Program-made: the position numbers and the translations under genes
Source of the DNA: Phycisphaerae bacterium
GTDB lineage: Bacteria > Planctomycetota > Phycisphaerae > FEN-1346 > JAACEH01
DNA: 64,000 nucleotides
NCBI GenBank assembly: GCA_012729015.1
Contig: JAAYDY010000105.1
Span: forward strand, 35,296-99,295
Direction: 5' to 3'
The notes under the pieces: generated by a model
Told to the model about the DNA's origin: nothing
What the model saw: the letters and a program-made list of their open reading frames with translations, nothing else
Databases searched by the model: none
Shown: piece by piece, positions 26,503 through 43,667 of the stretch
Layout of the letters: each line of letters begins with the position of its first letter
How positions within the stretch are numbered: position 1 is the first letter of the stretch

Positions 26503-27741
26503 TCAAGGGCGAGGGGCTGCCAGTTGGCGGTAGATGTCGAGGGCGGCCGGGAACGGCGTCAGGGCCCGCTGGAAGATGCCGAGGGACCAGGCGATGGTGA
26601 GGCCGTAGTTGGTGATCGGGACGCCGGCCTCGCGACAGCGGAGGATTCGCGAGAGCATCTCGCGGCGGTTCCAGACGCACGCGGCACAGTGGACCACCAG
26701 TTTGTAGGAAGCCATGTCGGCCGGGAAGTCGTGGCCCTGGGTGTGGTCGATGTGGAGTTTGCCGCCGACGTATTGCGTGAGCCACCGCGGAATCTTGACG
26801 GTGCCGATGTCCTCGCCGATCGGGTGATGCGAGCAGGCCTCGGCGATCAGGACGCGGTCGCCGGGCTTGAGGGATTCGATGGCCATGGCGCCGCGGACGA
26901 ACTCGTTGAGATCGCCCTTGAACCTCGCGAAGAGGATGGAAAAGGAGGTCATGGGAACAGCCTGCGGCGTGTCGCCGGCCACCTTGAGGAAGGCCTGACT
27001 GTCGGTCACGACAAGCGCCGGGGGACGATTGAGCCTGTCCAGGGCATCGCGCAGCTCGCGTTCCTTGACGACCATGCAGTAGGCGTCGTTGTCGAGCAGG
27101 TCGCGGATGGTCTGGACCTGGGGGACAATCAATCGGCCTTTGGGGGCCTCGAGGTCGATGGGAACGACGAGGACGGCCATGTCGCCGGGGGGGACGAGGT
27201 CGCCGATGATTGTGGGGGCGTTGACGAATTCCTCGGGCGCGGCACGGATGATGGCCTCGCGCAGATCGAGAACGCCATCGCCGCGACTGGCGACGGTCTC
27301 GACCATGGGCACCTTGGCCTCCTTGAGGCGTTGGACCACCTCGGGGCGCGGCGGGTGGAGATCGACCTTGTTGAAGACGGCGACGGCGGGCGTCTTGCGT
27401 CGGGTGAGTTCGTCGAGGATGGCGTCCTCGAACTGGCTCCAGTGCCCTGCCTCGGTGACGATGACGCCGAGGTCGGTTCGGTCGAAGACCTGTCGGGTTC
27501 GCTCGACGCGCATCTGGCCGAGGGCGCCGACGTCGTCGATGCCGGCCGTGTCGATGAAGAGGACGGGGCCCACCGGGAGCAGCTCCATGGGCTTCTCCAC
27601 CGGATCGGTGGTGGTCCCGGCGACGTCCGAGACAATGGAGACAGCCTGCCGCGTCATGGCGTTCAGCAGGGAGGACTTGCCGACATTGCGGCGTCCGAAG
27701 AGGCCGATGTGGAGGCGAAATCCCTTGGGGGCGGCTCTCAT
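26503..27741 (-). CDS. hydF: [FeFe]-hydrogenase maturation GTPase HydF
   Basis: N-terminal GTPase (GRRNVGKSSL, DTAG, NKVD) and C-terminal cluster-binding CxHx…HC motifs (EACSHHP, HCAACV). Real CDS is the C-terminal 412 aa of the ORF. Confidence 0.85.
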   Translation of the reverse strand: MRAAPKGFRLHIGLFGRRNVGKSSLLNAMTRQAVSIVSDVAGTTTDPVEKPMELLPVGPVLFIDTAGIDDVGALGQMRVERTRQVFDRTDLGVIVTEAGHWSQFEDAILDELTRRKTPAVAVFNKVDLHPPRPEVVQRLKEAKVPMVETVASRGDGVLDLREAIIRAAPEEFVNAPTIIGDLVPPGDMAVLVVPIDLEAPKGRLIVPQVQTIRDLLDNDAYCMVVKERELRDALDRLNRPPALVVTDSQAFLKVAGDTPQAVPMTSFSILFARFKGDLNEFVRGAMAIESLKPGDRVLIAEACSHHPIGEDIGTVKIPRWLTQYVGGKLHIDHTQGHDFPADMASYKLVVHCAACVWNRREMLSRILRCREAGVPITNYGLTIAWSLGIFQRALTPFPAALDIYRQLAAPRP

Positions 27742-29153
27742 GGGGTCTCCTTGTGCCCGGTCGGGCTCCCGAGACGCATGACGCTCTCGCCGGCGACCAG
27801 GGAATCGAACTGCTCGGCGGTCAGGAGTCCGGCGGCCATGGCGGCGTCGCGGACGGTCTGGCCCGAGCGTCGGGCTTCGGCGGCGATGCGCTGGGCGGCC
27901 TCGTATCCAACGGCGGCCACGAGGGCCGTGGCACTGGCCGTGGCGCCGTGGACCGTTCGCCGGCAGCGGTCTTCGTCGGCCTCGATGCCGGCGACGCACA
28001 GTCGCCGGAGGATGCCGCAGGCGGCCGTCAGCAGGTCGAGGCTTGTCAACAGTGCGTCGGCCACGAGGGGCAGGAAGGCATTGAGTTCCAGGTTGCCCAG
28101 GGAACATGCCATCGTGAGGGCGTGATCGTGAGCCATGACGGCCATGGCGGCCTGGCTGACGGCCTCGGGGATCACGGGGTTGACCTTGCCTGGCATGATG
28201 GAGGAGCCGGCCTGGCGCGGGGGCAGGCGGATTTCGCCAAGCCCGGCATCGGGCCCCGAGGCCAGCAGGCGAAGATCGCTCGACACTTTCAGAAGGTTCG
28301 AGGCGCACGCCTTGAGAATGCCGCTGACCTCGACGAAGACGTCGGCGTTCTGGGTGGCCTCAACGAGGTTCTCCGCGCGTCCGAGGCCGTAGCCGGTGAT
28401 CTCGCGGAGGTGATCGACCACGCGGAAGATGTACTGCCGCGGGGCGGCAAGGCCGGTGCCGATGGCTGTGCCGCCAAGATTAACGGTGCGGAGCCGCTCC
28501 TCGCACTTGTAGATGCGCCAGCGGTCGCGAGCGAAGGCTTCGGCGTAGGCGCCCATCTCGCGGCCGAGGGTGAGCAGAACGGCGTCCTGCAACTGCGTTC
28601 GGCCCACCTTCACGACGTGGGCCATCTGTTTCTCTTTGCGCTGGAACTCTTCGAGCAGGGCGACGACCTCGCGCTCCAGATCGCGCAGACGTCCGACGGC
28701 GGCCACCTTGAGGGCTGTCGGGTAAGTGTCGTTGGTGGACTGGTGCCGGTTGAGGTCTTCGGTGGGACTGACGGCAGCGTAGTCGCCCAGGGGCCGGCCG
28801 AGGAGTTGCAACGCGCGGTTGGCAAGAACCTCGTTGACGTTCATGTTGGTGGAGGTGCCTGCGCCGCCCTGAAGCGCATCGACGACGACGTGGGCATCGA
28901 GCCGGCCTTCGATCATCTCCTCGCAGGCGGCTTCAATGGCCGCGGCCGTGCGGTCGTCCCAGCATCCGAGTTCGCGGTTGGTCCGGGCGCAGGCCAGTTT
29001 GACGGCACCGTAGGCACGGACGAGCGCGGGGTTGACCGCGCGGCGGGCCAGCGGGAAGTTCTCGATGGCCCGCTCGGTGTGGATGCCATGCAGAGCGTGG
29101 GCGGGAACGTCCCGCTCGCCGAGAAGATCGTGTTCTTTGCGATAGGCAGTCAT
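27738..29153 (-). CDS. Aspartate ammonia-lyase / class II fumarase family protein
   Basis: GSSIMPGKVNP signature and full-length AspA/FumC similarity. Embedded between hydG and hydF with operon-type spacing. Confidence 0.8.
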   Translation of the reverse strand: MTAYRKEHDLLGERDVPAHALHGIHTERAIENFPLARRAVNPALVRAYGAVKLACARTNRELGCWDDRTAAAIEAACEEMIEGRLDAHVVVDALQGGAGTSTNMNVNEVLANRALQLLGRPLGDYAAVSPTEDLNRHQSTNDTYPTALKVAAVGRLRDLEREVVALLEEFQRKEKQMAHVVKVGRTQLQDAVLLTLGREMGAYAEAFARDRWRIYKCEERLRTVNLGGTAIGTGLAAPRQYIFRVVDHLREITGYGLGRAENLVEATQNADVFVEVSGILKACASNLLKVSSDLRLLASGPDAGLGEIRLPPRQAGSSIMPGKVNPVIPEAVSQAAMAVMAHDHALTMACSLGNLELNAFLPLVADALLTSLDLLTAACGILRRLCVAGIEADEDRCRRTVHGATASATALVAAVGYEAAQRIAAEARRSGQTVRDAAMAAGLLTAEQFDSLVAGESVMRLGSPTGHKETP

Positions 29154-29169
29154 GGTTGATCACCGGGGT

Positions 29170-30594
29170 CTAGAAGTACAGGTCGCGGTCGTCGCTGGTC
29201 CGAATCCGATTGAGCCTCGAGGCCAGTTCCGTCTTGATCGTTCCCTCGGGCAGCCGGTCGAGTTCGGCAGCAATCAGGCGGCGGCCGGCCTCTCGCGTCT
29301 CGGGCGATGCGTAGTCGGTCAGGTACTCCGTCAGGGTGCTCAGGGCGTTGGGGGTGCAGAAGTCGCGAATGAATCCCGGAATGGCAAACTCCATGAAGTG
29401 CTCGCCCGTGCGACCGAGGCGGTAGCAGGCCGTGCAGAAGCTCGGAACGTAGCCGTCCTGGATCAACTCGCGCATCACCAGGTCCAGCGGTCGGATGTCG
29501 CCGAGCATGAACTGCTCGCGCTGCATGACCTGGGTGTCGCCGGCCTCGGTGTATCCGCCGATCTCGATACGGCTGCCGGCGTCGATCTGCGAGACGCCGA
29601 AGGCCATGACTTCGCGGCGCAGTTCCGGCCGCTCACGGGCGGTCATAATCAGCCCCGTGTACGGCACGGACACACGCAGAATCGCCACCAACCGTTTGAA
29701 CTGGTCATCGGTGACGAGGTGACGCGGGTCGGTCTGGACGCCGGCGGCCGGTTGCAGGCGCGGAAAACTGATCGTGTGGGGGCCGACGCCGTACCGTTGC
29801 TGCAAGTGCAGCGCGTGCTGCACGAGTCCCAGCACTTCGAACCGCCAGTCGCACAGGCCGAACAGGGCGCCGATGCCCATGTCGTCGCAGCCGGCCTCGA
29901 AAGCCCGGCTGAGGGCGTCGAGCCGCCAGAGGTAATCCGCCTTGCGCGTTCCGGCCGGATGCAACCGGGCGTAGGTCTCGTGGTGATAGGTTTCCTGAAA
30001 GACCTGGTAGGTGCCGATGCCGGCCTGCTTGACGATGCGGTAGCCCTCGTGGTCCTGGGGCGCGGCATTGATGTTGACTCGCCGGATGCTGCCGTGGCCC
30101 ACCTTCACGTCGTAGACCGTGCGCACCGTGTCGGCGATGAACGAGGCATCGTATTTCGGATGCTCGCCGTAGACGAGAATCAGCCGCTTGTGACCGACCT
30201 GCTCCAGGGCTTCGACCTGGGCGATCAGTTCGTCGCGTGTGAGAGTGCGACGGACGGCATCGCGATTGGAGCGTTTGAACCCGCAGTAGGCGCAGTCGTT
30301 GACGCAATCGTTGCCGACATAGAGCGGCGCGAAGAGCACGATGCGGTTGCCGTAGACGTCGCGTTTCAACTGCCTGGCGGTGTTCAGAATCCGTTCGACG
30401 AGCGCCGGGTCCTCAGCAGCCAGGAGGACCGCCGTCTCCTCGATCGTCAGCGCCTGCTTGGCCCGGCTCTTGGCCAGGATGTCGTCCACGCGGGCTGCGT
30501 CGGGCCGGGCCGTGTGCAGCAGGTCGGTCAGGTGCGCATCATGAATGAAATCCACAGCTCCTTCGCTGAGGGTCATTGCCGCAAGCTTTCCCAT
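29170..30594 (-). CDS. hydG: [FeFe]-hydrogenase maturase HydG (radical SAM tyrosine lyase)
   Basis: CVNDCAYCGF radical-SAM motif. C-terminal CTACYR…C cluster motif. 474 aa. Confidence 0.9.
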   Translation of the reverse strand: MGKLAAMTLSEGAVDFIHDAHLTDLLHTARPDAARVDDILAKSRAKQALTIEETAVLLAAEDPALVERILNTARQLKRDVYGNRIVLFAPLYVGNDCVNDCAYCGFKRSNRDAVRRTLTRDELIAQVEALEQVGHKRLILVYGEHPKYDASFIADTVRTVYDVKVGHGSIRRVNINAAPQDHEGYRIVKQAGIGTYQVFQETYHHETYARLHPAGTRKADYLWRLDALSRAFEAGCDDMGIGALFGLCDWRFEVLGLVQHALHLQQRYGVGPHTISFPRLQPAAGVQTDPRHLVTDDQFKRLVAILRVSVPYTGLIMTARERPELRREVMAFGVSQIDAGSRIEIGGYTEAGDTQVMQREQFMLGDIRPLDLVMRELIQDGYVPSFCTACYRLGRTGEHFMEFAIPGFIRDFCTPNALSTLTEYLTDYASPETREAGRRLIAAELDRLPEGTIKTELASRLNRIRTSDDRDLYF

Positions 30595-30610
30595 GTCAGA
30601 CCACTCCTCT

Positions 30611-31681
30611 CTACGCCTTCATCGGGCCGGGTGCCTGCCGGAGACGATACGCTCCGGAGTCGCCCCGCCCTCGACCGATGGTTCGCCCCATGGCCACAAT
30701 GCCGGCCTTCACCTGTCGGTCGAATTCGTCCGTTTCCCCGCAAGAGGCCTTGCCGGGATAAATCTCGTACATGGCACGATACGCCGGCGGCGTCAGGTTG
30801 GGCATGACGACGTTGCCGCCGCGAGCCAGCCCGAGTTGTCGCCCGCCCTCGGCATTCAGCGTGGCCAGGGCCGTCGTGCTCGGGATGTTGGCCCTCGGAC
30901 AGACGATTCGCGCCAAGGCCACCGCCTTACAGCCAGTGAGCTCGTCGGCAGGCGCCTGCTCCCCCGGCGGCAGGCACCATGCCTGGCCGTCGCGGCCCAG
31001 GGGCGTGTCCGGGTGTGCGATGAACGGCCCCAGGCCGATCATGTCCAGGTCGAGTTCGCCGAACAGTTCGATGTCCCGAGCCAGATCGTCGAGACTCTGG
31101 CCGGGGATGCCCACCATGACGCCGCTGCCGATCTCGTAGCCCATGGCGCGCAGGTATCGCAGAATCGCCAGCCGGTCGCGAGGCTCCGCCCCCGGTCGCG
31201 CCGGGTGAATCCTCGCGAACAACGCCTTGTTGCTCGTTTCGAACCGAAGCAGGTAGCGGTCGGCCCCGGCGTCGCGCCACAGGGCCAGTTCGTCGTTGGT
31301 CCGCTCGCCCAGACTGAGCGTTATGGCCAAGGGCGTCTCGGCCTTGATGCGGCGGATGACCTCGGCAAGCCAGCGGGCCTCGATGCTCCAGTCTTCGCCC
31401 GATTGCAGGACAACGGTGCCATAGCCGAGAGCAACGGCTTTGTCGGCGGCAGCGAGAATCTCGCCGGCGGTCATGCGATAGCGCGGTAAGCCCGTGCGGT
31501 CGGCCCTCACGCCACAGTAAAGGCATTGACGAGAGCAGTGGTTGGATATCTCGATGAGGCCGCGCAGGTGCACTTCGTCGCCGACACACTCTCGCCGCAC
31601 GTCGTCTGCGTGCTTCCACAACGACTCGAGGCGGCCGGGCTCGGTCTGTCGAAGCCACGAGCGGATGTCGTCATGCGTCAT
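30611..31681 (-). CDS. hydE: [FeFe]-hydrogenase maturase HydE (radical SAM, BioB-like)
   Basis: CSRQCLYCG radical-SAM motif and BioB-like fold. Start at MTHDDIRSWL (ATG 31681). Confidence 0.85.
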   Translation of the reverse strand: MTHDDIRSWLRQTEPGRLESLWKHADDVRRECVGDEVHLRGLIEISNHCSRQCLYCGVRADRTGLPRYRMTAGEILAAADKAVALGYGTVVLQSGEDWSIEARWLAEVIRRIKAETPLAITLSLGERTNDELALWRDAGADRYLLRFETSNKALFARIHPARPGAEPRDRLAILRYLRAMGYEIGSGVMVGIPGQSLDDLARDIELFGELDLDMIGLGPFIAHPDTPLGRDGQAWCLPPGEQAPADELTGCKAVALARIVCPRANIPSTTALATLNAEGGRQLGLARGGNVVMPNLTPPAYRAMYEIYPGKASCGETDEFDRQVKAGIVAMGRTIGRGRGDSGAYRLRQAPGPMKA

Positions 31682-32834
31682 GATCCTGTACCGCCTCGAC
31701 GGCCTGATCGGCCCGGACCTTGCGCGACAGGACGACTGTGAAGGTGCTGCCGACGTCGGGTTCGCTCTCGACGCGAACCTCGCCGCCGTAGAGGGTCGCG
31801 AGCCGGCGGACAATCGACAATCCGAGGCCGCTGCCCAGGATGTTGCGCGTTCGGTCGTTCTTGATCCGGACGAACTCGCCGAACAGTCGCGACGTTTCCT
31901 CTTTGCTCATCCCGATGCCCGTGTCGGTGACGGCGATGGTGATCGTGTCGGCATCGCCGCCGAGCCGCACGTCCACGCGGCCGTTGTCGCGATTGTACTT
32001 CACGGCATTGGAAACAAGGTTGTTCAGGACGATCTCGATCTCGCCTGCGTCGGCCATCATCAGGAGCGGCCCGGACCCGTGAATCTGGAGCGTGATGCTG
32101 CGTGCCCTGGCGTCGGGCATCGCCGTCTCGACAGCGGTATCTGCCAGAGCGCGGACATCGACTTCGGCCAGTTCGCGTTTCTTGCGGCCGGACTCGATGT
32201 GCGTCAGGTCGAGCAGGTCGACGATCAGTTTGCGCATGTGCCGCGTGCGGATCAGGCATCGGTCGAGCATGTGGTCGTAGGTGGCCTGATCGTCGCCGGC
32301 GGTTCGGTCGCGTACAATCTGAAGGTAACCCTCGACGGCGGCCAGGGGCGACTTGAGCTCGTGAGCGACAACGCGGATGAACTCGAACCGGACCTGTCGC
32401 TTCTCCTGGGCGAGGCGGCGGGCCTGTCGGGCCGTGATCAGCGTCTCAGCGGCCCGTCGGATCGTGGTCTTCAGCTCGCTGGGCGTGAAGGGTTTGGCCA
32501 GGAAGTCGTAGGCCCCCTGCTTGATGGCGCTGACGGCCGTCTCGAGCGAGGCGTAGGCGGTGATCATGATCGTGAGCATATGATCGCTGCGTCCGACGTG
32601 GTCCAGGACGTCGAGGCCCGACATGCCGGGGAGCTTGTGATCGAGCAGGAGGATGTCGGGCTCGGAGGCGCGGATCATCTCAAGGGCCTTCTCGCCGGTG
32701 TCGGCGGTCTCGACGGTGAACGCCACGCGCTGGTCGATGTCCGTGAGGTCGAAATGGCAGTCGCCCAGCGCGCGGGCCACCCCCATCCGCATCCCCGGTT
32801 CGTCGTCCACGACCAGCACGCGAAGCGTCTCCAC
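31671..32834 (-). CDS. Hybrid two-component protein: N-terminal receiver domain fused to HisKA-HATPase histidine kinase
   Basis: VLVVDDE…ILLLDHKLPGMSGLD receiver. H-box VAHELKSPLAAV. G1/G2 ATPase boxes (DTGIGM, GSGLGLSIV). Confidence 0.8.
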   Translation of the reverse strand: METLRVLVVDDEPGMRMGVARALGDCHFDLTDIDQRVAFTVETADTGEKALEMIRASEPDILLLDHKLPGMSGLDVLDHVGRSDHMLTIMITAYASLETAVSAIKQGAYDFLAKPFTPSELKTTIRRAAETLITARQARRLAQEKRQVRFEFIRVVAHELKSPLAAVEGYLQIVRDRTAGDDQATYDHMLDRCLIRTRHMRKLIVDLLDLTHIESGRKKRELAEVDVRALADTAVETAMPDARARSITLQIHGSGPLLMMADAGEIEIVLNNLVSNAVKYNRDNGRVDVRLGGDADTITIAVTDTGIGMSKEETSRLFGEFVRIKNDRTRNILGSGLGLSIVRRLATLYGGEVRVESEPDVGSTFTVVLSRKVRADQAVEAVQDHDA

Positions 32835-32838
32835 GAGC

Positions 32839-33228
32839 CTACCCTTTCACCAGTCGGCCGATTTCCCGCTTGAGTTGCTCGAACCGCACGGGCTTGTCCA
32901 GAATCGCGTCGGCCTTCACCCAGGCCCGCTCGCCGTCGGTCGTAGCATCGAACTTGATGCCCGTCTCGGCGGCCACAGCGGTGACCATGACGACCGGCAG
33001 CGCGGCGTCCTTGGCCTTGATCTCGTGGCAAAGGACAAACCCGTCGTCCATGTGCTCCATCATCAGGTCCACCACAACGAGATCCGGCCGGCCCTGCGCC
33101 AGGGCCTTGCGGGCCTCGGCGAGGCCGTCGGCCTCGACCACCGCAAAACCGGCGGCCTCCAGTTGCACGCGCAGCTGGGCGCGGAAATCCATGTCGTCGT
33201 CTACTACCAGAATCGTTCGTGCAGCCAT
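32839..33228 (-). CDS. Single-domain CheY-like response regulator
   Basis: 129 aa, ILVVDDD…DLVVVDLMMEHMDDG receiver domain only. Real CDS is the C-terminal part of the 525-aa ORF. Confidence 0.8.
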   Translation of the reverse strand: MAARTILVVDDDMDFRAQLRVQLEAAGFAVVEADGLAEARKALAQGRPDLVVVDLMMEHMDDGFVLCHEIKAKDAALPVVMVTAVAAETGIKFDATTDGERAWVKADAILDKPVRFEQLKREIGRLVKG

Positions 33229-33293
33229 GCTCTTCGTCCTGCCTTTCACTGTCGCAGCGTCGCCGGAGGGATGCGCCGGGAGCGCCGCAGCCC

Positions 33294-35336
33294 TCAGACC
33301 TTCACCGTCCTGGCCTCGGCCCGACGCGGCAACGTCACCGTGAACGTTGTCCCCGTGGGGCCGGCCTTCGGATCGGCATTGGATCGCACGCGGATGTCTC
33401 CGCGGTGCATCTTCACGATACCGTAACTGACAGCCAATCCCAAGCCTGTTCCTTCGCCGATCTGCTTCGTCGTGAAGAACGGCTCGAAAATCTTCTCCAG
33501 GTTCTCCTTGGCGATGCCGACGCCCGTGTCGGTCACCTCGATCTGGACTCGGTCGCCCTGGGCCCGCGTCGTGACGGTCAGCGTGCCGCCCTCCGGCATG
33601 GCGGCCACGGCGTTGCTGGCCAGGTTGGTCAGCACCTGGACCATCTGGTCGCGGTCCAGGTCCACGACGGGATCCGCTAACTGGTGATCCACAACGACCT
33701 TGACGTTCTCGGGCATCGCAACGCCGCCGAGCATCGCCTCGACCAGTTCCTTCGTGTCGGTCGGCTCGTGGACCACCTTGTTCTGCCGGGCGAAGTGGAG
33801 CAGGCCGGAGACGATCTTCTTGCAGCGATCTGCCTGCTCGGCCACCATGGCCAGGTCGCCGCGAAGCCGCGCGTCTTTCGGACACTCGTCCAGCAACAGG
33901 TGCGCGTACATCAGGACCACGCCGAGCGGGTTGTTCACCTCGTGGGCGATACCGGCGGCAAGCTGTCCCATGCTGGCCAGCTTCTCGGATTGGATCAGGG
34001 CGGCCTGCGCACTGGCCAGTTGGTCGTTGCTGACAGCCAGGTCCTTGACCGCGCGGCGGAGCTGCTCGATCGTGTAGGGCAGGCACATTTCGCTTTCGGC
34101 CAGGCCCTTGAAGATAGCGATGGCGTGCTCGCGGCAGGTGTCGTAGCCGCAGGCGCCGCAGTTCAGCTCGTCCTGCGGGGTGAACTTGCCCATTCGCGCC
34201 AGGATGGTGCGGATGTCGTCGTCGTCCAGGGGCGCCGGCATGCGCTGATCGTTGGAGGCGAACACGCGGCCCAGGTCGAGGTCGGCCATGTCGTCCATCG
34301 CGCGGCGCCAGGCGTCCATGTCGAACTGCTCGCGGCGGCGACGCACGTACTGGCTGACGCGCGAACGGCGGCGGAAGAGGGCATCGGTGCTGCTGGTGCC
34401 GGCGCCCATGATACACCCGTTGCAGCAGAGGACTTCCAGGAGCCGCGCGTCGAGGTCGCCCGACTTGAACTCGGCGATGGCCTCGACGAAATTGGTGCGC
34501 CCGTCGGCCGCGACGACCTGGCCGGTCATCAGATCCTCGCTGATGCCGGCGGCCTGGAGCATGCCGCGACTGATGGGGAAGAGGGCCCCTGCCCCTCCGA
34601 GCGGCGGATCAAAGTCCGACGGCTCGGCCTTGGACGCGGCGAGGCCGGCTTCGCGCAGCATGTCCTGCAACTCGATGAACGTCAGGACGGCATCGACCTC
34701 GTGGGCCACGCGGACGCTGGCGGCCTCGCCTTTTTTGGCGATGCATGGACCGACGAAGACGACCTTCAGATCCGGGCCGTGCAGCCGCCTCAGGACGCGG
34801 GCCGTGGCGATCATCGGCGACACGATGGGCGCCAATGACGCCACGACCTCGGGGTGATAGCGTTCCACGTATCCGAAAATCGCCGGGCAGCTCGTGGCGA
34901 TGTACCGCTTGTCGGGATTCTCCTGGAGCAGCCGGCGGTAGCGGTCGGCCACCAGGTCGGCGCCGAAGGCCACCTCATTGACGAGGTCGAAGCCCAGGGC
35001 GCGGATCATGCCGACGACCCTGAGCGGATCGACGCCGGCGAACTCGGCCGGGAAACTCGGCGCGACGATGGCTGCGACGCGAGAGGGCCCTTTCAGGATC
35101 GCCCTGACGTCGGCCGTGGAATCCAGAACCTGTTTGGCCCGCTGGCTGCAAACGCGGACGCAGTTTCCGCAGCCGATGCAACGCTGTGGAATGACGTCGG
35201 CCTGGCCGTCGGCGATGCGGATGGCCTTGGCCGGGCATTCGCGCACGCACGTATAGCAGACGCGGCAGCGCTCCTTGACCGTCGTGACCAGAGGAAGGTT
35301 CTGTGCATGCTTCAACCGACGTTCCTCACTTGACAA
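33294..35336 (-). CDS. Sensory-type [FeFe]-hydrogenase (HydS-like H-domain) fused to a histidine kinase
   Basis: N-terminal 2x[4Fe-4S] ([24 protein letters not shown]). H-cluster motifs L1 ATSCP, L2 [10 protein letters not shown]3 [14 protein letters not shown] Cx2Cx4Cx16C motif (CGACGYDTC…EMC). Then HisKA ([12 protein letters not shown]) and HATPase_c. TTG start at 35336, overlapping hydA by 11 nt. Confidence 0.85.
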
Positions 35337-37047
35337 CTTCGCGCGGTGCGTAATGCGTGTGCAGCAGGTGATGGCTCTTCTCGCCCAGGGGCTTGCCGAG
35401 GAACTCCTCGTAGAGCCGCTGGACTTCCTTGTTGGCGTGCGACGTCCGGAGGGCGGCGTCGCGGTCGATCTTGTACAGGGCCCTCATTCGGGCACGGACC
35501 TGCTCGGGCTGCGTCTGGTACGGTTGTCCGCCGCCGGCGATGCACCCGCCGGGGCAGGTCATGACCTCGATGAAGTGCAGGTCGTTGCGTCCGGCGCGGA
35601 TCTGTTCGAGCAGCCGGCGGGCGTTGGCCAGGCCACTAACGACGGCGACGCCCACGTCCAGCCCGTCAACATTGAGGCGGGCCTCTTTAACGCCCTTGGC
35701 GCCGCGAACGGCCTGGACCTTCAGTTCGTCCATTTCGCGGCCGGTGATCAGCCAGTACGCCGTGCGGATGGCGGCCTCCATGACGCCGCCGCTGGCACCG
35801 AAGAGCTTGCCGGCGCTGGACCGCTCGCCGAACGGCGTGTCGGCGGAGTCGGGCTCCAGCGAAGCCAGGTCGATGCCTCGCATGTGAATCAGGCGCGCCA
35901 CTTCGCGCGTCGTCAGGACGGCGTCGATGTCGGGATTGCCGCTCTGGGTCATCTCGGGGCGGCCGGCCTCGAACTTCTTGGCTGTGCACGGCATGATCGC
36001 CACGCTGAAGATGCGCGACGGGTCCAGCCCGGCACGCTGGGCGAAATGTGTCTTGATGATTGCGCCGAGCATCTGCTGCGGGCTCTTGCACGTGGACAGG
36101 TTCTCGATGAAGTCCGGGAAGAACTGCTCGACGAATTTGATCCAACCCGGAGAGCAACTGGTCATCATCGGCAGCCGGCCGCCGGTCTTGACGCGTTGGA
36201 CAAACTCGCTGGCTTCTTCCATGATCGTCAGGTCGGCGCTGAACGAGGTGTCGAACACACGGTCGAATCCAAGGGCTCGCAGGGCCGCCGTGAGGGTGCC
36301 GGCCATGTCGATGCCGGGCTTCAGGCCGAACTCCTCGGCCACCGTGACGGACACTGCCGGTGCGTGCTGCACGACCACCGTCATGTCGGGATCGTTCAGC
36401 GCATCGACCACCAGCTTGAGGTGACTCTGTTCTCGCAGCGCCCCGGTCGGGCAGACCATGATGCACTGGCCGCAGTTGATGCAACTGGACACGTTGAGCC
36501 CATCGTTGAAGGCGGTGGTGACCTGGGTGTGACATCCTCGGCCGACGAAATCAATGGCCGAGACGCCCTGGATTTCCTCGCATACGCGGACGCAGCGGCC
36601 GCACAGGATGCACTTGGCCGGATCGCGCACGATGGACGGGCTGGAGAGGTCCATCTTGTCGTCGTTCTTGGCGCCGGTGAATCGTCGCTCGCGAACGCCG
36701 AGCTCCTCGGCGAGCGACTGGAGCTGGCAACTGCCGCTGCGGACGCAGAAGAGGCAGTCGTCCGGATGGTTCGACAGGAGCAGTTCGACGATCGTCTTGC
36801 GGGCCCTGAGGACGCGCGGCGAGTGGGTCTGAACCTTCATGCCCGCAGTCACGGGGAATGCGCAACTGGGGACGAGGCCCCGTTGTCCTTCGACCTCGAC
36901 GACGCACATGCGGCACGCGCCGCTGGGAAACAGCTCGTCCATATGGCAGAGCGTCGGCACCTTGATGCCGGCTCGTTTCAGCGTGTCCAGCAGCATTTCG
37001 CCCGGCTGGGCTTCCACTGTCCGATGATTGACTTCAATGGTAACCAC
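35326..37047 (-). CDS. hydA: [FeFe]-hydrogenase catalytic subunit HydA (M3-type, NuoG-like N-terminus)
   Basis: 2Fe-2S, His-ligated 4Fe-4S and 2x[4Fe-4S] domains at the N-terminus. H-cluster motifs TSCSPGW (L1 variant), MPCTAKKFE (L2), EVMTCPGGCIAGGG (L3). GTG start with GGGAG upstream. Confidence 0.85.
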   Translation of the reverse strand: MVTIEVNHRTVEAQPGEMLLDTLKRAGIKVPTLCHMDELFPSGACRMCVVEVEGQRGLVPSCAFPVTAGMKVQTHSPRVLRARKTIVELLLSNHPDDCLFCVRSGSCQLQSLAEELGVRERRFTGAKNDDKMDLSSPSIVRDPAKCILCGRCVRVCEEIQGVSAIDFVGRGCHTQVTTAFNDGLNVSSCINCGQCIMVCPTGALREQSHLKLVVDALNDPDMTVVVQHAPAVSVTVAEEFGLKPGIDMAGTLTAALRALGFDRVFDTSFSADLTIMEEASEFVQRVKTGGRLPMMTSCSPGWIKFVEQFFPDFIENLSTCKSPQQMLGAIIKTHFAQRAGLDPSRIFSVAIMPCTAKKFEAGRPEMTQSGNPDIDAVLTTREVARLIHMRGIDLASLEPDSADTPFGERSSAGKLFGASGGVMEAAIRTAYWLITGREMDELKVQAVRGAKGVKEARLNVDGLDVGVAVVSGLANARRLLEQIRAGRNDLHFIEVMTCPGGCIAGGGQPYQTQPEQVRARMRALYKIDRDAALRTSHANKEVQRLYEEFLGKPLGEKSHHLLHTHYAPREVVK

Positions 37048-37062
37048 AGTATGACTCCCGAC

Positions 37063-39030
37063 TTATTCCACGGTAATGGCATTGAACCGACAGGCCGCGA
37101 CACACGAGCCGCAAGCGACGCACTTTTCCGGAACGATGTAGTGTGGGCTCTTCGGTGCGCCCATGATGGCGCCGCTGGGACACTGGCGAGCGCAGAGCGT
37201 GCACCCCTTGCACTTGTCCGGATCGATCTTGTACACAAGCAGTTCCGTGCAGACTCCCGCGGGGCAGCGACGCTCGTAGATGTGAGCCTCGTACTCGTCG
37301 CGGAACCATCGGAGCGTGCTCAGCACGGGGTTCGGGGCGGTCTGCCCCAGGCCGCAGAGGCTGGCGTCACGAATGACCTCGGCCAGCCGTTCGAGGTTCA
37401 TCACGCCCTTGAAGCGTTCGAGGGCGGCGGGCCCCTTCTCGGTGCGGTAGCCCTGTGTGATGCGTTGGAGGATTTCGAGCATGCGGCGCGTGCCCTCGCG
37501 ACACGGGATGCACTTGCCGCAGCTTTCGCGCTGGATGAAGTCCATGAAGAACTTGGCCACATCGACCATGCAGGTGTCTTCGTCCATGACGACGAGGCCG
37601 CCGCTGCCCATCATAGCGCCGACGGTCTTGAGGGACTCGTAGTCGATCAGGATGCCCAGGTGCTGGGTCGGGATGCAGCCGCCCGACGGGCCGCCGATCT
37701 GGACGGCCTTGAAGGCCTTGCCGTTGGGAATGCCGCCGCCGATGTCCAGGACGATCTGGCGGATGGGCGTGCCCATGGCCACTTCGACCAGGCCCGTGCG
37801 CGACACCTTGCCGGAGAGGGCGAACACCTTCGTGCCCTTGCTGGTCTGAGTTCCCGTGGCGGCGAACCAGTCGGCGCCCTTGGAGACGAGCATCGGCAGG
37901 TTGGCCAGGGTCTCGACGTTGTTGATGACCGTGGGCTTGCCGAACAGGCCGCTGACGGCCGGATAGGGCGGCCTCGGCCGCGGCATGCCGCGTTTGCCCT
38001 CGACGCTGTTGATCAGGGCAGTTTCCTCGCCGCAGACGAAGGCGCCGGCACCCTGCTTGAGCATGATTTCGAGGTCGAACCCGCTGTCGAGGATATTGCG
38101 GCCGAGCAGGCCGTAGGCCTTGGCCTGGGCGATGGCCTGGTTCAACCGCTCAATGGCCAGGGGATACTCGGCGCGGATGTAGACGTAGGCCTTGTTGGCG
38201 CCGATGGCGTAGGCGGCCAGGGCCATGCCCTCGAGCAGGCGATGCGGATCGCCCTCGATGACGGCCCGGTCCATGAAAGCACCGGGGTCGCCCTCGTCGG
38301 CGTTGCAGATCAGGTACTTCTGGTCGGCGGGCTGCTGGAGAGCGAACCGCCACTTGCGGCCGGTCGGGAACCCGCCGCCGCCGCGGCCTCGCAGGCCGCT
38401 GCGCTCGACCGTCGCGCAGAGGTCGTCGCGCGTCATGCCGCGAAGCGCGTCGGCGAAGGCGCGGTACCCGCCGCGGGCGATGTACTCTTCGATGCTCTTC
38501 GGGTCGATGCGGCCGATGTCCACGAGGACCCAGCGCGTCTGCGGGCCGAAGAACGGGTGCTCGTCCAGGAACGGCACGCCCGACCAACTTTCCAGGGTGG
38601 GGTGGCGGTGCTGGCCGATGAGGCCTTCCTGCGGCACGTTGCCCGCCAGCACGGCGTCCAGCAGGGCCGGCACCTTGTCGGACGTGACCTCGCCGAAGGA
38701 CAACCGCGTGCGGCCGGGCAGTTGCACGTCCACCATGGGTTCCACGGCGCAAAGGCCAATGCACCCGACCTCGACGACGTCGGCATCGACGCCCTTGGCG
38801 GCCAGATGGGCCCGGACGGCTTCGAGGGTCTTGCCGGCGCCGGCACCCAGGCCACACGTGCCGGCCCCGACGAAGACGCACGGACGCTCAATCACGTCCC
38901 GGCGGAGGCAGGCCAGCAGGGCTTCGTCCTGGACGGGATCGCCGGCGATATACGCAAGAAGCTCCGGCGACGGGGCGGAGCCCACGCGCCGGCGTGTTCT
39001 GTCTTGATTTCGTTCACTTACTGTGGACAT
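37063..39030 (-). CDS. hydB: NuoF-like NADH-binding flavoprotein subunit of [FeFe] hydrogenase (HydB/HndC-like)
   Basis: N-terminal thioredoxin-like 2Fe-2S. NuoF core (GRGGGGFPTGRKW, CNADEGDPGAF, ESCGKCIPCR). C-terminal 2x[4Fe-4S]. Confidence 0.85.
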   Translation of the reverse strand: MSTVSERNQDRTRRRVGSAPSPELLAYIAGDPVQDEALLACLRRDVIERPCVFVGAGTCGLGAGAGKTLEAVRAHLAAKGVDADVVEVGCIGLCAVEPMVDVQLPGRTRLSFGEVTSDKVPALLDAVLAGNVPQEGLIGQHRHPTLESWSGVPFLDEHPFFGPQTRWVLVDIGRIDPKSIEEYIARGGYRAFADALRGMTRDDLCATVERSGLRGRGGGGFPTGRKWRFALQQPADQKYLICNADEGDPGAFMDRAVIEGDPHRLLEGMALAAYAIGANKAYVYIRAEYPLAIERLNQAIAQAKAYGLLGRNILDSGFDLEIMLKQGAGAFVCGEETALINSVEGKRGMPRPRPPYPAVSGLFGKPTVINNVETLANLPMLVSKGADWFAATGTQTSKGTKVFALSGKVSRTGLVEVAMGTPIRQIVLDIGGGIPNGKAFKAVQIGGPSGGCIPTQHLGILIDYESLKTVGAMMGSGGLVVMDEDTCMVDVAKFFMDFIQRESCGKCIPCREGTRRMLEILQRITQGYRTEKGPAALERFKGVMNLERLAEVIRDASLCGLGQTAPNPVLSTLRWFRDEYEAHIYERRCPAGVCTELLVYKIDPDKCKGCTLCARQCPSGAIMGAPKSPHYIVPEKCVACGSCVAACRFNAITVE

Positions 39031-39499
39031 CGGCAGAGGCCTTTCCTCGATACGAATCCAGAATCTTCCTGACCGAATCCGGCGTCAGTTTCGCATGAAA
39101 CTCGCCGTTGACGCACATCACCGGAGCCAGGCCGCAAGCCCCGATACAAGCCACGACCTCCAGGCTGAACAGGCCGTCGCGGGTCGTTTCGCCCGGCTTG
39201 AGCTTCAGCTCGCGCTTCACGGCTTCCAGAATGCCGGCCGACCCCTTCACGTGGCAGGCCGTGCCGCGGCAGAGCTGAATGTGGAAGCGTCCCTGCGGCT
39301 GAAACCGGAACTGGTTGTAAAAGGTGGCCACGCCATAGACCTTGCTGGCCGGCAACCCCAGATGCTCGCCTACGCGGGCGACCGATTCTCGCGACAGGTA
39401 GCCCTCGACCTGCTGCACCTTCTGCAGGATCGGAATGAGGGCATCGCGACCGGCGCCGGCATAGTCCTTGAGAATTCCGCCTACGTCGACCTTTGTCAC
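39014..39499 (-). CDS. hydC: NuoE-like 2Fe-2S subunit (HydC/HndA-like)
   Basis: Cx4C…Cx3C thioredoxin-like ferredoxin (LCRGTACHVKG…ACIGACGLAP). GTG 39499 with AGGAAGG upstream. Upstream part of the ORF is artefactual. Confidence 0.75.
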   Translation of the reverse strand: MTKVDVGGILKDYAGAGRDALIPILQKVQQVEGYLSRESVARVGEHLGLPASKVYGVATFYNQFRFQPQGRFHIQLCRGTACHVKGSAGILEAVKRELKLKPGETTRDGLFSLEVVACIGACGLAPVMCVNGEFHAKLTPDSVRKILDSYRGKASADVHSK

Positions 39500-39510
39500 A
39501 GCAGTCCTTC

Positions 39511-40152
39511 CTAACTGACCGACACCTTGTGGGCTCGCTTCTGGCGAGCGAAGAACGCCACCTTCTCCAGAGAGGTGGTCACATCGATATCTTCGACATA
39601 CACATGCTCCGGCACGCGAATCGCCACGGGAGCGAAGTTGAGCAGTCCACGGACGCCGGCCCGCACAAGCACATCGGCCACGTCCTGGGCGGCCTCGGCC
39701 GGAACGGCCACCATGGCCACCCGAATGCCTCTGTCGTCGACGACCGAGGCCATGTCTTCGATCGGATAGCACCGACATCCATGCACCACGCGATTGGTCT
39801 TGGAGCCGTCCTGATCGAACGCAGCCACCATCTTGAGCTTGGGCCGGCGGCCCTCGAAGTAGGCCATCATCGCGCGGCCGATGTTGCCGACACCCACCAG
39901 GGCAACCGCCTCCGGCTCGTCAGCATCCAGGAAGAGCCCGATATGCTCAATGAGCTCGGGCACGTCATATCCCCTGGCCGGACTCCCGGAACAGCCGACC
40001 GTCATCATGTCGCGACGCACCTGGGCAGCGGTAACGCCGGCGGCAGACGCAAGTTCATGTGAGAACACGTGTCTTGTGCCACGGTTGCGCATGGCAACCA
40101 GGAGCCTTCGATAGAGGCTCAGCCGTCCTACGGTTCGCTCGGGAGTCATCAT
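39511..40152 (-). CDS. rex: Redox-sensing transcriptional repressor Rex
   Basis: Winged-helix N-terminus plus Rossmann NADH-binding domain (LVGVGNIGRA). 213 aa. Confidence 0.85.
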   Translation of the reverse strand: MMTPERTVGRLSLYRRLLVAMRNRGTRHVFSHELASAAGVTAAQVRRDMMTVGCSGSPARGYDVPELIEHIGLFLDADEPEAVALVGVGNIGRAMMAYFEGRRPKLKMVAAFDQDGSKTNRVVHGCRCYPIEDMASVVDDRGIRVAMVAVPAEAAQDVADVLVRAGVRGLLNFAPVAIRVPEHVYVEDIDVTTSLEKVAFFARQKRAHKVSVS

Positions 40153-40197: not shown

Positions 40198-40215
40198 CTG
40201 TGAATCATTTCACAA
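40198..40215. promoter_or_regulatory. Putative Rex operator (cTGTGAA-TCAT-TTCACAA) ~45 nt upstream of rex
   Basis: Inverted repeat matching the Rex consensus TTGTGAA-N4-TTCACAA at 17/18 positions, read directly from the sequence. Confidence 0.6.
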
Positions 40216-42916: not shown

Positions 42917-42940
42917 AGTCTGCTAAGGGGCGAACTGGCG

Positions 42941-43654: not shown

Positions 43655-43667
43655 GGGCTATTGTCAC

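What the first reader, a model, noticed from the sequence alone, without database searches (positions are those of the whole stretch)
33294..35336. HydS-type sensory [FeFe]-hydrogenase domain fused directly to a histidine kinase (putative H2-sensing kinase)
One 680-aa ORF combines an N-terminal 2x[4Fe-4S] ferredoxin domain with a complete H-cluster domain, then a kinase. All three H-cluster motifs are present: L1 ATSCP, L2 [10 protein letters not shown]3 [13 protein letters not shown]. It also has the accessory Cx2Cx4Cx16C motif (CGACGYDTC…16 aa…C) that marks sensory HydS proteins. A HisKA H-box ([12 protein letters not shown]) and HATPase_c domain follow. In L1 the proton-relay Cys of canonical TSCCP is replaced by Ser. 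That change is expected to slow turnover and is typical of regulatory rather than catalytic [FeFe] hydrogenases. No PAS domain intervenes, so H2 binding at the H-cluster would be coupled directly to autophosphorylation. This architecture corresponds to the 'histidine-kinase-linked' putative sensory [FeFe] group from genome surveys. To my knowledge it has no biochemical characterisation. Here it sits inside a catalytic hydABC operon with its own maturases and two response-regulator genes, a complete candidate H2-signalling module.
Basis: partly seen in the sequence, partly recalled or inferred. Interest (0 to 1): 0.85.

Follow-up and report, generated by a model that had tools for sequence, protein, structure and literature searches.

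The report
Hydrogenase-type hydrogen sensor fused to kinase
Inside a hydrogen-metabolism operon of an uncultured planctomycete-like bacterium lies an intact gene that joins a modified [FeFe]-hydrogenase module directly to a histidine kinase; it is probably a hydrogen-sensing switch of a widespread type that genome surveys have already noted but nobody has tested biochemically.

Summary
One intact gene (33294..35315, minus strand, 673 aa; the 680-codon ORF starts 7 codons too early) encodes 2x[4Fe-4S], an H-domain, a Cx2Cx4Cx16C cluster, HisKA and HATPase_c. There is no PAS domain. All four H-cluster cysteines and the residues that contact the cyanide ligands are invariant in 80 relatives. The proton-relay Cys is never kept.

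New here:
- The last cluster cysteine lies exactly 47 residues before the phospho-His in 197 of 200 close relatives. In distant ones the spacing is 47 plus or minus multiples of 7, so the linker is an in-phase coiled coil.
- A REC-HisKA-HATPase kinase follows the gene in 74 of 75 loci and a stand-alone receiver lies beside it in 73 of 80. No DNA-binding output is linked, so the module is not "complete".
- The same sensor module is fused elsewhere to PAS, sigma-54 activator, GGDEF or MCP outputs, which argues for a sensory role.

The architecture is not new. It was noted in Elusimicrobia/Caldithrix (2020) and as "BfuT" in Hydrogenedentota (2024, typed as HydDB C3, not C1). It occurs in at least 80 species genomes from many phyla. 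I found no biochemical study.

Verdict: a new member of a known but uncharacterised kind, and a good experimental handle on [FeFe] H2 sensing.

The parts
33294..35315 (-). hydS-HK gene (673 aa plus stop): sensory [FeFe]-hydrogenase module fused to a histidine kinase. The maximal ORF extends to 35336.
35139..35276 (-). N-terminal 2x[4Fe-4S] ferredoxin-like domain (res 14-59). All eight Cys are kept in 80 of 80 relatives.
34401..35081 (-). H-domain (res 79-305). Motifs: L1 ATSCP (34884-34898), L2 GPCIAKKGE (34725-34751), L3 EVLCCNGC (34413-34436).
34083..34160 (-). C-terminal Cx2Cx4Cx16C [4Fe-4S] motif (C386, C389, C394, C411; Pfam PF04060)
33945..34082 (-). Helical heptad linker (res 412-457) from the last cluster Cys to the phospho-His. 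The Cys-to-His spacing is fixed at 47 residues in the family.
33783..33971 (-). HisKA/DHp domain. The H-box His458 codon is 33942-33944.
33321..33656 (-). HATPase_c catalytic domain. The N, G1, F and G2 boxes are invariant.
32839..33228 (-). Stand-alone receiver (REC only, 129 aa). Phospho-acceptor Asp and Lys are conserved. It starts 65 nt after hydS-HK.
31671..32834 (-). REC-HisKA-HATPase_c kinase (387 aa) with an NtrC/AtoC-like receiver and a PhoR/PnpS-like transmitter. It is the most constant partner of hydS-HK.
35326..37047 (-). hydA, catalytic [FeFe]-hydrogenase subunit (NCBIfam NF040763, 841 bits against a cut-off of 765). It stops 10 nt before hydS-HK.
37063..39030 (-). hydB (NuoF-like flavoprotein subunit)
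39014..39499 (-). hydC (NuoE-like [2Fe-2S] subunit)
39511..40152 (-). rex (redox-sensing repressor), first gene of the array
40198..40215 (.). Rex-box-like palindrome (1 mismatch) upstream of rex-hydC
30611..31681 (-). hydE maturase (TIGR03956, above cut-off). Its start overlaps the REC-HK stop by 11 nt.
29170..30594 (-). hydG maturase (TIGR03955, above cut-off)
26503..27741 (-). hydF maturase GTPase (TIGR03918, above cut-off). Its ATG overlaps the stop codon of the aspartase-like gene.

Best explanation
HydS-HK is a soluble, presumably dimeric sensor histidine kinase. Its input domain is a HydS-type [FeFe] hydrogenase that lacks the canonical proton-relay Cys and proton pathway.

Proposed mechanism:
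1. H2 binds and is heterolytically split at an H-cluster that lacks the fast proton pathway.
2. The resulting redox or conformational state of the H-domain passes through the C-terminal [4Fe-4S] knot. The fourth Cys ligand of that knot sits at the N-terminus of a continuous coiled coil.
3. The coiled coil runs, in fixed heptad phase, into the DHp helix that carries His458. This switches the balance between autokinase and phosphatase activity.
4. The phosphoryl group goes to the NtrC-like receiver of the adjacent REC-HK kinase, making a kinase-to-kinase relay, and/or to the stand-alone receiver, which may act as a sink or a protein-binding effector.
5. The final output lies outside the cluster. 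It would adjust hydrogen and fermentative electron flow, in parallel with Rex control of the operon.

Shown here: the domain order, the intact catalytic and ligand residues, the linker periodicity, the synteny and the modular fusions.
Inferred: H-cluster occupancy, H2 dependence, the sign of the response, the phosphotransfer partners and the output.
For: - Domains and motifs.
- In 80 relatives from many phyla the four H-cluster Cys (C143, C191, C298, C301) are 100% conserved. So are the counterparts of CpI K358 and E361 (K194, E197), the Cx2Cx4Cx16C Cys (three at 80/80, C394 at 79/80), His458 and the N, G1 and G2 boxes. The counterparts of CpI A230-P231-S232 (A85-P86-S87) are invariant in the 70-sequence alignment (alignment to CpI).
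- The C299 position is D/T/S/A/N and never Cys. E279, E282, S319 and R286 are not kept. M353 is Gly in 80 of 80, as reported for TmHydS.
- The AF2 model (pLDDT 80) shows only helices between L3 and the DHp and no PAS fold. The N-terminal ~440 aa match [FeFe]-hydrogenase structures. The C-terminus matches the ZraS cytoplasmic domain at 35% identity.
- The distance from the last cluster Cys to the phospho-His is 47 in 197 of 200 close relatives and 40 in 2. Among 30 distant direct fusions, 27 have 33, 40, 47, 54 or 68, that is 47+7k. Hydrophobic a/d positions are continuous from L412.
- Synteny: hydA lies immediately upstream in 69 of 74 loci with room, REC-HK downstream in 74 of 75, and the REC-only gene is adjacent in 73 of 80. 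Phospho-sites are intact in both partners.
- The transmitter's best matches are AtoS and ZraS. The receiver of REC-HK best matches AtoC, NtrX and NtrC.
- The same Fer4x2-H-FeS module is fused in its nearest relatives to PAS only (58), HisKA-HATPase (47), sigma-54 AAA+ with HTH_8 (15), GGDEF (3) or MCP (3). This pattern is expected of a sensory input domain.
- H-domain identity is ~40% to PAS-type HydS and ~26% to catalytic HydA.
Against: - No sensory [FeFe] hydrogenase has been shown to signal. Only TmHydS and TamHydS have been characterised, as isolated enzymes.
- In TamHydS the C-terminal cluster is not reduced under 1 atm H2. A simple redox switch at that cluster is therefore doubtful.
- No output-domain regulator is linked. 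Rex boxes could explain operon control without the kinase.
- H-cluster occupancy cannot be read from sequence.
- In the Bacteroidota-type members the C299 position is Asp. From the literature as I recall it, the C299D variant of group A enzymes keeps substantial activity (PDB 6glz is that variant), so "slow turnover" may not hold for the whole family.
- The AF2 linker has low confidence because the protein was modelled as a monomer.
Confidence: 0.6

Rival explanations
1. It senses redox poise rather than H2. The N-terminal [4Fe-4S] clusters exchange electrons with ferredoxin or with HydABC, and the H-cluster serves only as a vent or reference electrode. The kinase then reports the ferredoxin/NADH state, or the driving force for H2 production, and not the H2 concentration as such.
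For: - The N-terminal dicluster domain is fully conserved. In TamHydS it is the main electron path.
- The gene is translationally close to hydCBA and shares an operon with Rex, another redox sensor.
- The C-terminal cluster of TamHydS does not respond to H2.
Against: - The four H-cluster Cys and the CN-contacting residues are invariant across phyla. That is hard to explain if H2 chemistry were incidental.
- Simpler Fe-S or PAS sensors would be enough to sense redox state.
- The whole class always keeps the H-domain, whatever the output domain.
Confidence: 0.2
2. The hydrogenase-like domain has lost the [2Fe] subcluster, as in Nar1/NARF proteins. It carries only Fe-S clusters and the kinase senses O2, oxidative stress or Fe-S status.
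For: - The canonical P1-P3 signatures are not matched literally: ATSCP, GPC and EVLCCNGC.
- A survey reported that it could hardly find the P1-P3 signatures in kinase-domain-bearing group C1 proteins.
- Cysteine conservation alone cannot prove that the [2Fe] subcluster is present.
Against: - The same deviations occur in TmHydS and TamHydS, which do bind an active H-cluster.
- The counterparts of S232, K358 and E361 and the bridging Cys are invariant.
- The gene is embedded between hydA and hydE/G/F.
Confidence: 0.1
3. It is a structural or catalytic fourth subunit ("BfuT") of the HydABC complex. The kinase-like part would act as an ATPase or an anchor rather than in phosphorelay signalling.
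For: - It was named the T subunit of BfuABC in the Hydrogenedentota survey.
- Only 10 nt separate it from hydA.
- It is almost always adjacent to hydA.
Against: - The phospho-His, the ATP-lid boxes and two adjacent intact receivers are conserved.
- HydS-HK and REC-HK stay together even where hydA is not adjacent: L017, L019, L021, L026.
- The sensor module is fused to many unrelated signalling outputs.
Confidence: 0.07

Closest known systems
Kinase-fused group C [FeFe] hydrogenases noted in genome surveys: Elusimicrobia lineage V / Ignavibacterium / Caldithrix (bioRxiv 10.1101/765248, 2020) and "BfuT, sub-type V" of Hydrogenedentota, Calditrichota and Bacteroidota (mSystems 2024, PMC11406978)
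   Same: [quoted passage not shown]
- Same position downstream of trimeric hydCBA, with Rex nearby.
- My related loci include Hydrogenedentota and Elusimicrobia MAGs, and Bacteroidales loci with the reported second, PAS-type copy upstream of hydC.
   Different: Nothing essential differs. This window is a further member, probably from an uncultured Planctomycetota bacterium. Those papers did not report the REC/REC-HK partners, the fixed 47-residue linker or the residue-level conservation.
[quoted passage not shown]
   Same: - Two N-terminal [4Fe-4S] clusters, an H-domain without the proton-relay Cys and proton pathway, M353 replaced by Gly, and the C-terminal Cx2Cx4Cx16C cluster.
- Encoded next to a group A hydrogenase.
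   Different: - TmHydS ends in a PAS domain and has no kinase. Here a coiled coil leads straight into DHp-CA.
- M497 is Ser in TmHydS and Leu here.
- Sequence identity to TmHydS itself was not measured. PAS-type relatives in my loci are ~40% identical.
[quoted passage not shown]
   Same: No PAS domain, a C-terminal Cx2Cx4Cx16C cluster, M497 replaced by Leu, and loss of C299.
   Different: Group D has Ser/Thr at M353, whereas Gly is invariant here. [quoted passage not shown]
[NiFe] regulatory hydrogenase systems: HoxBC-HoxJ-HoxA of Cupriavidus necator and HupUV-HupT-HupR of Rhodobacter (HydDB [NiFe] group 2b)
   Same: Same logic: a hydrogenase-type H2 sensor controls a histidine kinase and a phosphorelay that governs hydrogenase expression (otherwise from established knowledge).
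   Different: The metal site and fold are unrelated. Sensor and kinase are separate polypeptides linked through a PAS-containing kinase. The output is a known NtrC-type regulator encoded in cis. Here sensor and kinase are one chain and the output is unknown.
NtrB/AtoS/ZraS-type HisKA transmitters, and cofactor-based sensor kinases such as FixL (haem) or NreB ([4Fe-4S])
   Same: - The transmitter is 35% identical to the ZraS cytoplasmic domain and has the same fold. Its best NCBIfam matches are AtoS and ZraS.
- The principle is the same: a gas- or redox-reactive cofactor gates a kinase.
   Different: The input is a whole hydrogenase module joined by a coiled coil, not a PAS or GAF domain. The protein reaches no NCBIfam curated cut-off.

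Membership tests
Putative sensory [FeFe] hydrogenases, group C (HydS / M2f type) | [quoted passage not shown] | tested here: met
   Pfam Fer4 families. All eight Cys are kept in 80 of 80 relatives.
Putative sensory [FeFe] hydrogenases, group C (HydS / M2f type) | H-domain with the four H-cluster cysteines (CpI C300, C355, C499, C503) | tested here: met
   Fe_hyd_lg_C E 1e-46. Alignment to HydA1 and CpI. C143, C191, C298 and C301 are kept in 80 of 80.
Putative sensory [FeFe] hydrogenases, group C (HydS / M2f type) | Proton-relay Cys (C299) and the group A proton pathway are not conserved | tested here: met
   Ser aligns with the mutated residue of 6gly (C299A). S319 is replaced by Ala, E279 and E282 by Arg, and R286 falls in a gap. 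Across the family the C299 position is D38/T19/S17/A4/N2.
Putative sensory [FeFe] hydrogenases, group C (HydS / M2f type) | C-terminal Cx2Cx4Cx16C cluster motif | tested here: met
   PF04060. The four Cys are kept in 79-80 of 80. The spacing is 16 in 134 of 134 relatives that carry the motif.
Putative sensory [FeFe] hydrogenases, group C (HydS / M2f type) | PAS domain after the C-terminal cluster | tested here: not met
   No PAS hit at E<=0.01. The AF2 model shows only helices between the cluster and the DHp. The gene is therefore a kinase-output variant of the group, not M2f in the strict sense.
Putative sensory [FeFe] hydrogenases, group C (HydS / M2f type) | Nearest sequence relatives are PAS-type HydS; encoded beside a group A hydrogenase | tested here: met
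   ~40% identity to PAS-type copies against ~26% to HydA. PAS-only proteins are the largest class among the nearest representatives. hydA lies upstream in 69 of 74 loci.
Putative sensory [FeFe] hydrogenases, group C (HydS / M2f type) | Binds the [2Fe] subcluster; low turnover; stabilised reduced states | not testable with these tools
   Needs protein expression, maturation, FTIR/EPR and electrochemistry.
Group D (M2e, TamHydS-like) | M353 replaced by a hydroxyl donor (Ser/Thr), reported as well conserved in M2e | tested here: not met
   Gly in 80 of 80.
HydDB subgroup C1, "histidine kinase-linked" | Assignment by the HydDB k-NN classifier | not testable with these tools
   HydDB cannot be run here. 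Published C1 cases have a separate kinase gene. The kinase-fused BfuT downstream of bfuA was typed as C3.
Class I (HisKA) sensor histidine kinases | H-box His and N, G1, F and G2 boxes; DHp plus CA fold | tested here: met
   HisKA and HATPase_c. H458, N568, D596/G598/G600 and G622-L627 are 79-80 of 80. Foldseek match to ZraS 9jfj, TM 0.74.
Class I (HisKA) sensor histidine kinases | Autophosphorylation and transfer to a cognate receiver | not testable with these tools
   Only adjacency and family-level pairing (AtoS/ZraS-like transmitter, AtoC/NtrC-like receiver) are available.
[NiFe] regulatory hydrogenase / HoxJ-type H2 sensing | [NiFe] large and small subunits complexed with a PAS-kinase | tested here: not met
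   The sensor is an [FeFe] H-domain. This is a functional analogue only.

The most novel reading that the evidence does not exclude
HydS-HK is a true H2-gated kinase in which the C-terminal [4Fe-4S] knot acts as a mechanical hinge, not a redox switch, that drives a phase-locked coiled coil. It heads a kinase-to-kinase relay (HydS-HK to REC-HK, with a stand-alone receiver as branch or sink). The output of that relay is not a cis-encoded transcription factor. It may be post-translational control of HydABC, or an unlinked OmpR-type regulator. That would make it the first mechanistically defined [FeFe]-based H2 signalling pathway.
Probability: 0.3. Interest if true: 0.65.

Novelty: new member of a known kind. 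Interest (0 to 1): 0.4.

Why it matters
Whether the "sensory" [FeFe] hydrogenases (groups C and D) really sense H2, and how the signal leaves the H-domain, has been open since they were first proposed. The two enzymes studied so far have no measurable output, and the latest work calls for their partners to be identified. A version with the kinase in the same polypeptide gives a direct in vitro read-out: autophosphorylation with and without H2. The phase-locked 47-residue linker and the conserved REC and REC-HK partners give concrete mutational and phosphotransfer tests. Ecologically, the module is attached to NADH/ferredoxin-linked hydrogenases in fermenters of many phyla. It may therefore set how these organisms respond to H2 build-up in anoxic sediments, digesters and similar habitats.

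Tried and rejected
- Frameshift or fusion artefact: rejected. Full-length colinear homologues occur in 80 genomes, and an independent gene call is identical.
- Sigma-54 promoter (TGGCAC-N5-TTGC) upstream of the operon, as a pointer to an NtrC-type output: 64 matches against 73 expected, and none well placed.
- Internal terminators that would split the array: fewer than chance, and none intergenic on the coding strand.
- A conserved DNA-binding response regulator near the module:
  - Unbiased clustering of all ORFs in 80 loci gave only Rex, the hyd genes, a FAD synthetase (Bacteroidota), a SpoIIE phosphatase and HydF.
  - The extra genes in L034 and L037 are further stand-alone receivers and a REC-Ser/Thr kinase.
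- Rex box as a universal feature: found upstream of rex or hydC in only 8 of 59 loci with this consensus.
- HydDB subgroup from the supplement of PMC11406978: the stored files were cut and gave no per-gene table.
- Group D membership: rejected on the M353 criterion.
- Greening et al. 2016 (ISME J) could not be retrieved.
- A Pfam census on the 150-sequence alignment exceeded the size limit. It was replaced by tail clustering plus representative scans.
Full report
**1. The observation**

A single uninterrupted ORF lies on the minus strand at 33294..35336 (680 codons from the first TTG). That TTG overlaps the end of hydA. A second in-frame TTG at 35315 has a GAGGA Shine-Dalgarno 7 nt upstream and lies 10 nt after the hydA stop codon. 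An identical 673-aa product was called independently on a JGI metagenome contig (P0001).

Pfam finds the following, in 680-aa numbering:
- a 4Fe-4S dicluster domain, 21-66
- Fe_hyd_lg_C, 86-312, E 1e-46
- the small "FeS" domain PF04060, 391-420
- HisKA, 456-518
- HATPase_c, 561-672
- no PAS domain

The fusion is not an assembly or frameshift artefact. Eighty loci from different species-level genomes align colinearly over query residues ~8-674. All 120 listed protein clusters at 65-100% identity carry the same Pfam set.

**2. The hydrogenase site**

PDB chains of CpI point mutants served as rulers.
- The Ser of ATSCP aligns with the mutated residue of 6gly (C299A), and the following Cys aligns with C300.
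- S319, identified from 6gm4 (S319A), is Ala.
- E279 and E282 are Arg, and R286 falls in a gap.
- GPC corresponds to MPC, so M353 is Gly.
- EVLCC-NGC corresponds to EVMACPGGC, so M497 is Leu and C499 and C503 are kept.

In an alignment of the window protein with 79 full-length relatives from related loci:
- The four H-cluster cysteines are invariant, as are G189 (M353), L296 (M497), K194 (K358) and E197 (E361).
- The C299 position is D38/T19/S17/A4/N2 and never Cys. Asp is confined to the Bacteroidota-type loci.
- The counterparts of E279 and E282 vary.

The A85-P86-S87 triplet, the counterpart of CpI A230-P231-S232, is invariant in the 70-sequence alignment.

According to Land et al. 2020 (PMC8163306), loss of C299 and of the proton pathway, together with the Cx2Cx4Cx16C motif, marks groups C and D. 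M353 is Gly in TmHydS (group C). Ser/Thr at M353 is the conserved group D feature. By these criteria the module is group C-like and not group D.

**3. The kinase**

- His458, the N box (N564, N568), the G1 box (D596-x-G-x-G), the F box and the G2 box (G622-T-G-L-G-L) are 79-80 of 80.
- An AlphaFold2 model built on 70 sequences has mean pLDDT 80.3, with the H-domain above 90.
- Between L3 and the DHp the model shows only helices and the small cluster knot. Long helices at 408-425 and 433-477 carry His458. A second DHp helix (483-510) and an alpha/beta CA domain follow. There is no PAS fold.
- Foldseek matches the first ~440 residues to [FeFe]-hydrogenase structures (8a6t, CpI, CbA5H, TmHydA; E ~1e-21 to 1e-19). 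It matches the last ~235 residues to the ZraS cytoplasmic domain (9jfj; 35% identity, TM 0.74).
- The PDB copy searched holds no sensory HydS structure.
- No NCBIfam model reaches its cut-off. The best partial matches are AtoS and ZraS. This explains the generic public names "4Fe-4S binding protein" and "histidine kinase".

**4. A phase-locked linker (new here)**

The distance from the last cysteine of the C-terminal cluster motif (C411) to the phospho-accepting His (H458) is exactly 47 residues in 197 of 200 close relatives. It is 40 (47 minus 7) in two. Among the more distant cluster representatives in which a kinase follows the cluster directly, 27 of 30 have 33, 40, 47, 54 or 68 residues, that is 47+7k. 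The three exceptions are 38, 48 and 49. Conserved hydrophobic positions follow an a/d heptad pattern from L412 onward. The E-M-C-L-P segment around the fourth ligand is almost invariant. Together these point to a continuous coiled coil that couples the cluster knot rigidly, and in register, to the DHp.

**5. Context in the window**

The minus strand carries an 11-gene array of 13.65 kb (26503-40152) with gaps of -17 to +65 nt:
- rex
- hydC, hydB and hydA (hydA is NF040763, 841 bits against a cut-off of 765)
- hydS-HK
- a stand-alone receiver (129 aa)
- a REC-HisKA-HATPase kinase (387 aa)
- hydE (TIGR03956), hydG (TIGR03955), an aspartate-ammonia-lyase-like gene, and hydF (TIGR03918); all three maturases score above their cut-offs

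No intergenic terminator-like site lies on the coding strand. The only two Rex-box-like palindromes in the 64 kb window (0.08 expected by chance) lie upstream of rex-hydC (40198-40215) and upstream of a divergent Hox-type [NiFe] hydrogenase cluster (40961-40978).

The window has 66% G+C. Its nearest named relatives are Planctomycetes (88%) and Phycisphaerae (67-69%) MAGs.

**6. Conserved partners**

Window proteins were mapped by tblastn onto the 80 loci. These come from Planctomycetota, Hydrogenedentota, Sumerlaeota, Myxococcota, Acidobacteriota, Verrucomicrobiota/Lentisphaerae, Bacteroidota, Thermoleophilia, Elusimicrobia, Krumholzibacteriia, WOR-3, Clostridia and others. The results:
- hydA lies immediately upstream in 69 of 74 loci with room.
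- The REC-HK kinase lies downstream in 74 of 75.
- The stand-alone receiver is adjacent in 73 of 80: downstream in 64, and between hydA and hydS-HK in 10 (one locus has both).
- The HydS-HK/REC-HK pair persists even where hydA is not adjacent (L017, L019, L021, L026).

Both partners keep their phospho-acceptor Asp and Lys, and REC-HK keeps its His and ATP-binding boxes. The receiver of REC-HK best matches AtoC, NtrX and NtrC receivers. That fits an AtoS/ZraS-like donor. Its own transmitter is PhoR/PnpS-like.

No DNA-binding or other output-domain regulator is conserved nearby. Extra genes in some loci are further stand-alone receivers or a REC-Ser/Thr kinase.

**7. The module is a swappable input domain**

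An exhaustive phmmer search with residues 1-430, run against 1.84 billion cluster representatives, gave 1035 hits at E<=1e-30. Of the best 150, 134 carry Cx2Cx4Cx16C. I clustered the sequences C-terminal to the last Cys and checked one representative of each group with Pfam:
- 58 PAS-only (the classical HydS type)
- 47 HisKA-HATPase, including PAS-HK, GAF-GAF-HK and PAS-HK-REC-REC variants
- 15 sigma-54 activator AAA+ with HTH_8
- 3 GGDEF
- 3 MCP signalling domain
- 1 HisKA_3 kinase

In every case the output begins within about 10-50 residues of the cluster knot. One conserved N-terminal module joined to many alternative transmitters is what is expected of a sensory input domain. It argues against a purely catalytic or structural role.

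Bacteroidales loci carry both a PAS-type copy with a SpoIIE phosphatase upstream of hydC and the kinase-type copy downstream of hydA. H-domain identity is ~40% between the two types and ~26% to HydA.

**8. What is already known**

- HydDB lists [FeFe] C1 "histidine kinase-linked", C2 "chemotactic" and C3 "phosphatase-linked". All are marked putative, with an undetermined role (PMC5037454).
- Published C1 cases have a separate kinase gene (PMC6163223, PMC8542988).
- The fused architecture has been noted at least twice:
  - As "BfuT" of sub-type V BfuABC clusters in Hydrogenedentota, Calditrichota and Bacteroidota, where it was typed as C3 (PMC11406978).
- The Caldithrix genome paper treats Cabys_3675-3679 as a Rex-controlled operon and does not discuss the fifth gene (PMC5317091).
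- Reviews describe group C simply as PAS fusions.
- As of April 2026 only TmHydS and TamHydS have been characterised. The TamHydS C-terminal cluster is not reduced by H2, and the authors call for the interaction partners to be identified (PMC13104023).
- Six literature searches found no biochemical or genetic study of a kinase-fused member.

**9. Mechanism and rivals**

The best-supported model (confidence ~0.6) has four steps:
1. H2 reacts at an H-cluster that lacks the canonical proton-relay Cys and proton pathway.
2. The resulting state passes through the C-terminal cluster knot and the phase-locked coiled coil to the DHp.
3. Phosphoryl flow goes to REC-HK and/or the stand-alone receiver.
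4. The output is unlinked and acts alongside Rex.

The anatomy, conservation, periodicity, synteny and modularity are shown here. Cofactor occupancy, H2 dependence, the sign of the response, the partners and the output are inferred.

The rivals are:
- a redox-poise sensor that uses the N-terminal clusters (0.2)
- an H-cluster-less Fe-S, O2 or stress sensor (0.1)
- a true fourth subunit of HydABC (0.07)

**10. Verdict**

The system is a new member of a known, widespread and already noticed, but biochemically untested, kind. Its value is as an experimental handle on the open question of [FeFe] H2 sensing. The linker rule and the conserved REC/REC-HK partners were not reported in the survey papers I read. 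Interest is 0.4.

Noticed in passing
window 36142-36162 (within hydA, 35326-37047, minus strand); also L001-L080: The catalytic HydA has the L1 motif TSCSPGW instead of TSCCPxW. Anchoring on the flanking Pro and Trp, the [4Fe-4S]H ligand Cys (CpI C300) is Ser, while the proton-relay Cys (C299) is kept. L3 is EVMTCPGGC. The variant occurs in 36 of the HydA-like genes in the related loci (33 TSCSP and 3 SSCSP; some loci carry two copies) and mostly accompanies Thr at the A498 position. Bacteroidota and Myxococcota copies have TSCCP. It has been mentioned once in passing, for Melainabacteria (PMC3787301). How the cubane is ligated in these enzymes is unexplained.
   Followed up: partly
proteins P0245 (755 aa), P0140 (603 aa), P0171 (585 aa), P0153, P0177, P0190: The same Fer4x2-H-domain-FeS sensor module is fused directly to other outputs: a sigma-54 activator AAA+ domain with a Fis-type HTH (15 of the 134 nearest cluster representatives that carry the cluster motif; a one-component candidate H2-responsive enhancer-binding protein), GGDEF (3), an MCP signalling domain (3), a HisKA_3 kinase, GAF-GAF-HK and PAS-HK-REC-REC. 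Neither the sigma-54 nor the GGDEF fusion has a subgroup in the HydDB scheme.
   Followed up: partly
window 40198-40215 and 40961-40978: The window has only two Rex-box palindromes (TTGTGAA-N4-TTCACAA; 0.08 expected). One lies upstream of rex-hydC. A perfect one lies upstream of the divergent Hox-type [NiFe] cluster. With this consensus, only 8 of 59 related loci show a box upstream of rex or hydC.
   Followed up: partly
window 41105-46581, plus strand: A divergently transcribed NAD-linked [NiFe] hydrogenase cluster: a NuoE-NuoF fusion (41105-42916), HoxU-like (42941-43654), a small subunit (43575-44213) and a NiFe large subunit (44238-45677). A third stand-alone receiver gene follows (46204-46581), 32% identical over 81 residues to the hyd-linked one.
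   Followed up: no
window 27738-29153, minus strand; also L001, L012, L016, L021, L023, L038: An aspartate-ammonia-lyase-like gene (NF008909, 626 bits) sits between hydG and hydF, with a 4-nt overlap onto hydF. It keeps this place beside the maturase genes in several related loci. That suggests a role in H-cluster maturation, perhaps as a nitrogen donor. This was not examined.
   Followed up: no
L027 1324-3177 (minus), L040, L042, L058, L072: Some PAS-type HydS copies upstream of hydC in Bacteroidales lack the first L3 cysteine (FYHSGC, FYNEGC or FYDEGC in place of FxCxGC). One cubane ligand is therefore missing, whereas the kinase-type copy in the same loci keeps all four. Each PAS-type copy examined (L027) is followed by a SpoIIE-type phosphatase.
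   Followed up: partly
L034 11515-13529: In a Verrucomicrobiota locus the REC-HK gene is followed by a further stand-alone receiver and by a receiver fused to a Ser/Thr protein kinase. This hints that the relay branches differently in different lineages.
   Followed up: no
window 55505-57145, minus strand: Two further tblastn matches to the N-terminal Fe-S part of HydA (52% over 99 aa and 32% over 111 aa). They suggest another NuoG/formate-dehydrogenase-like gene. Not annotated here.
   Followed up: no
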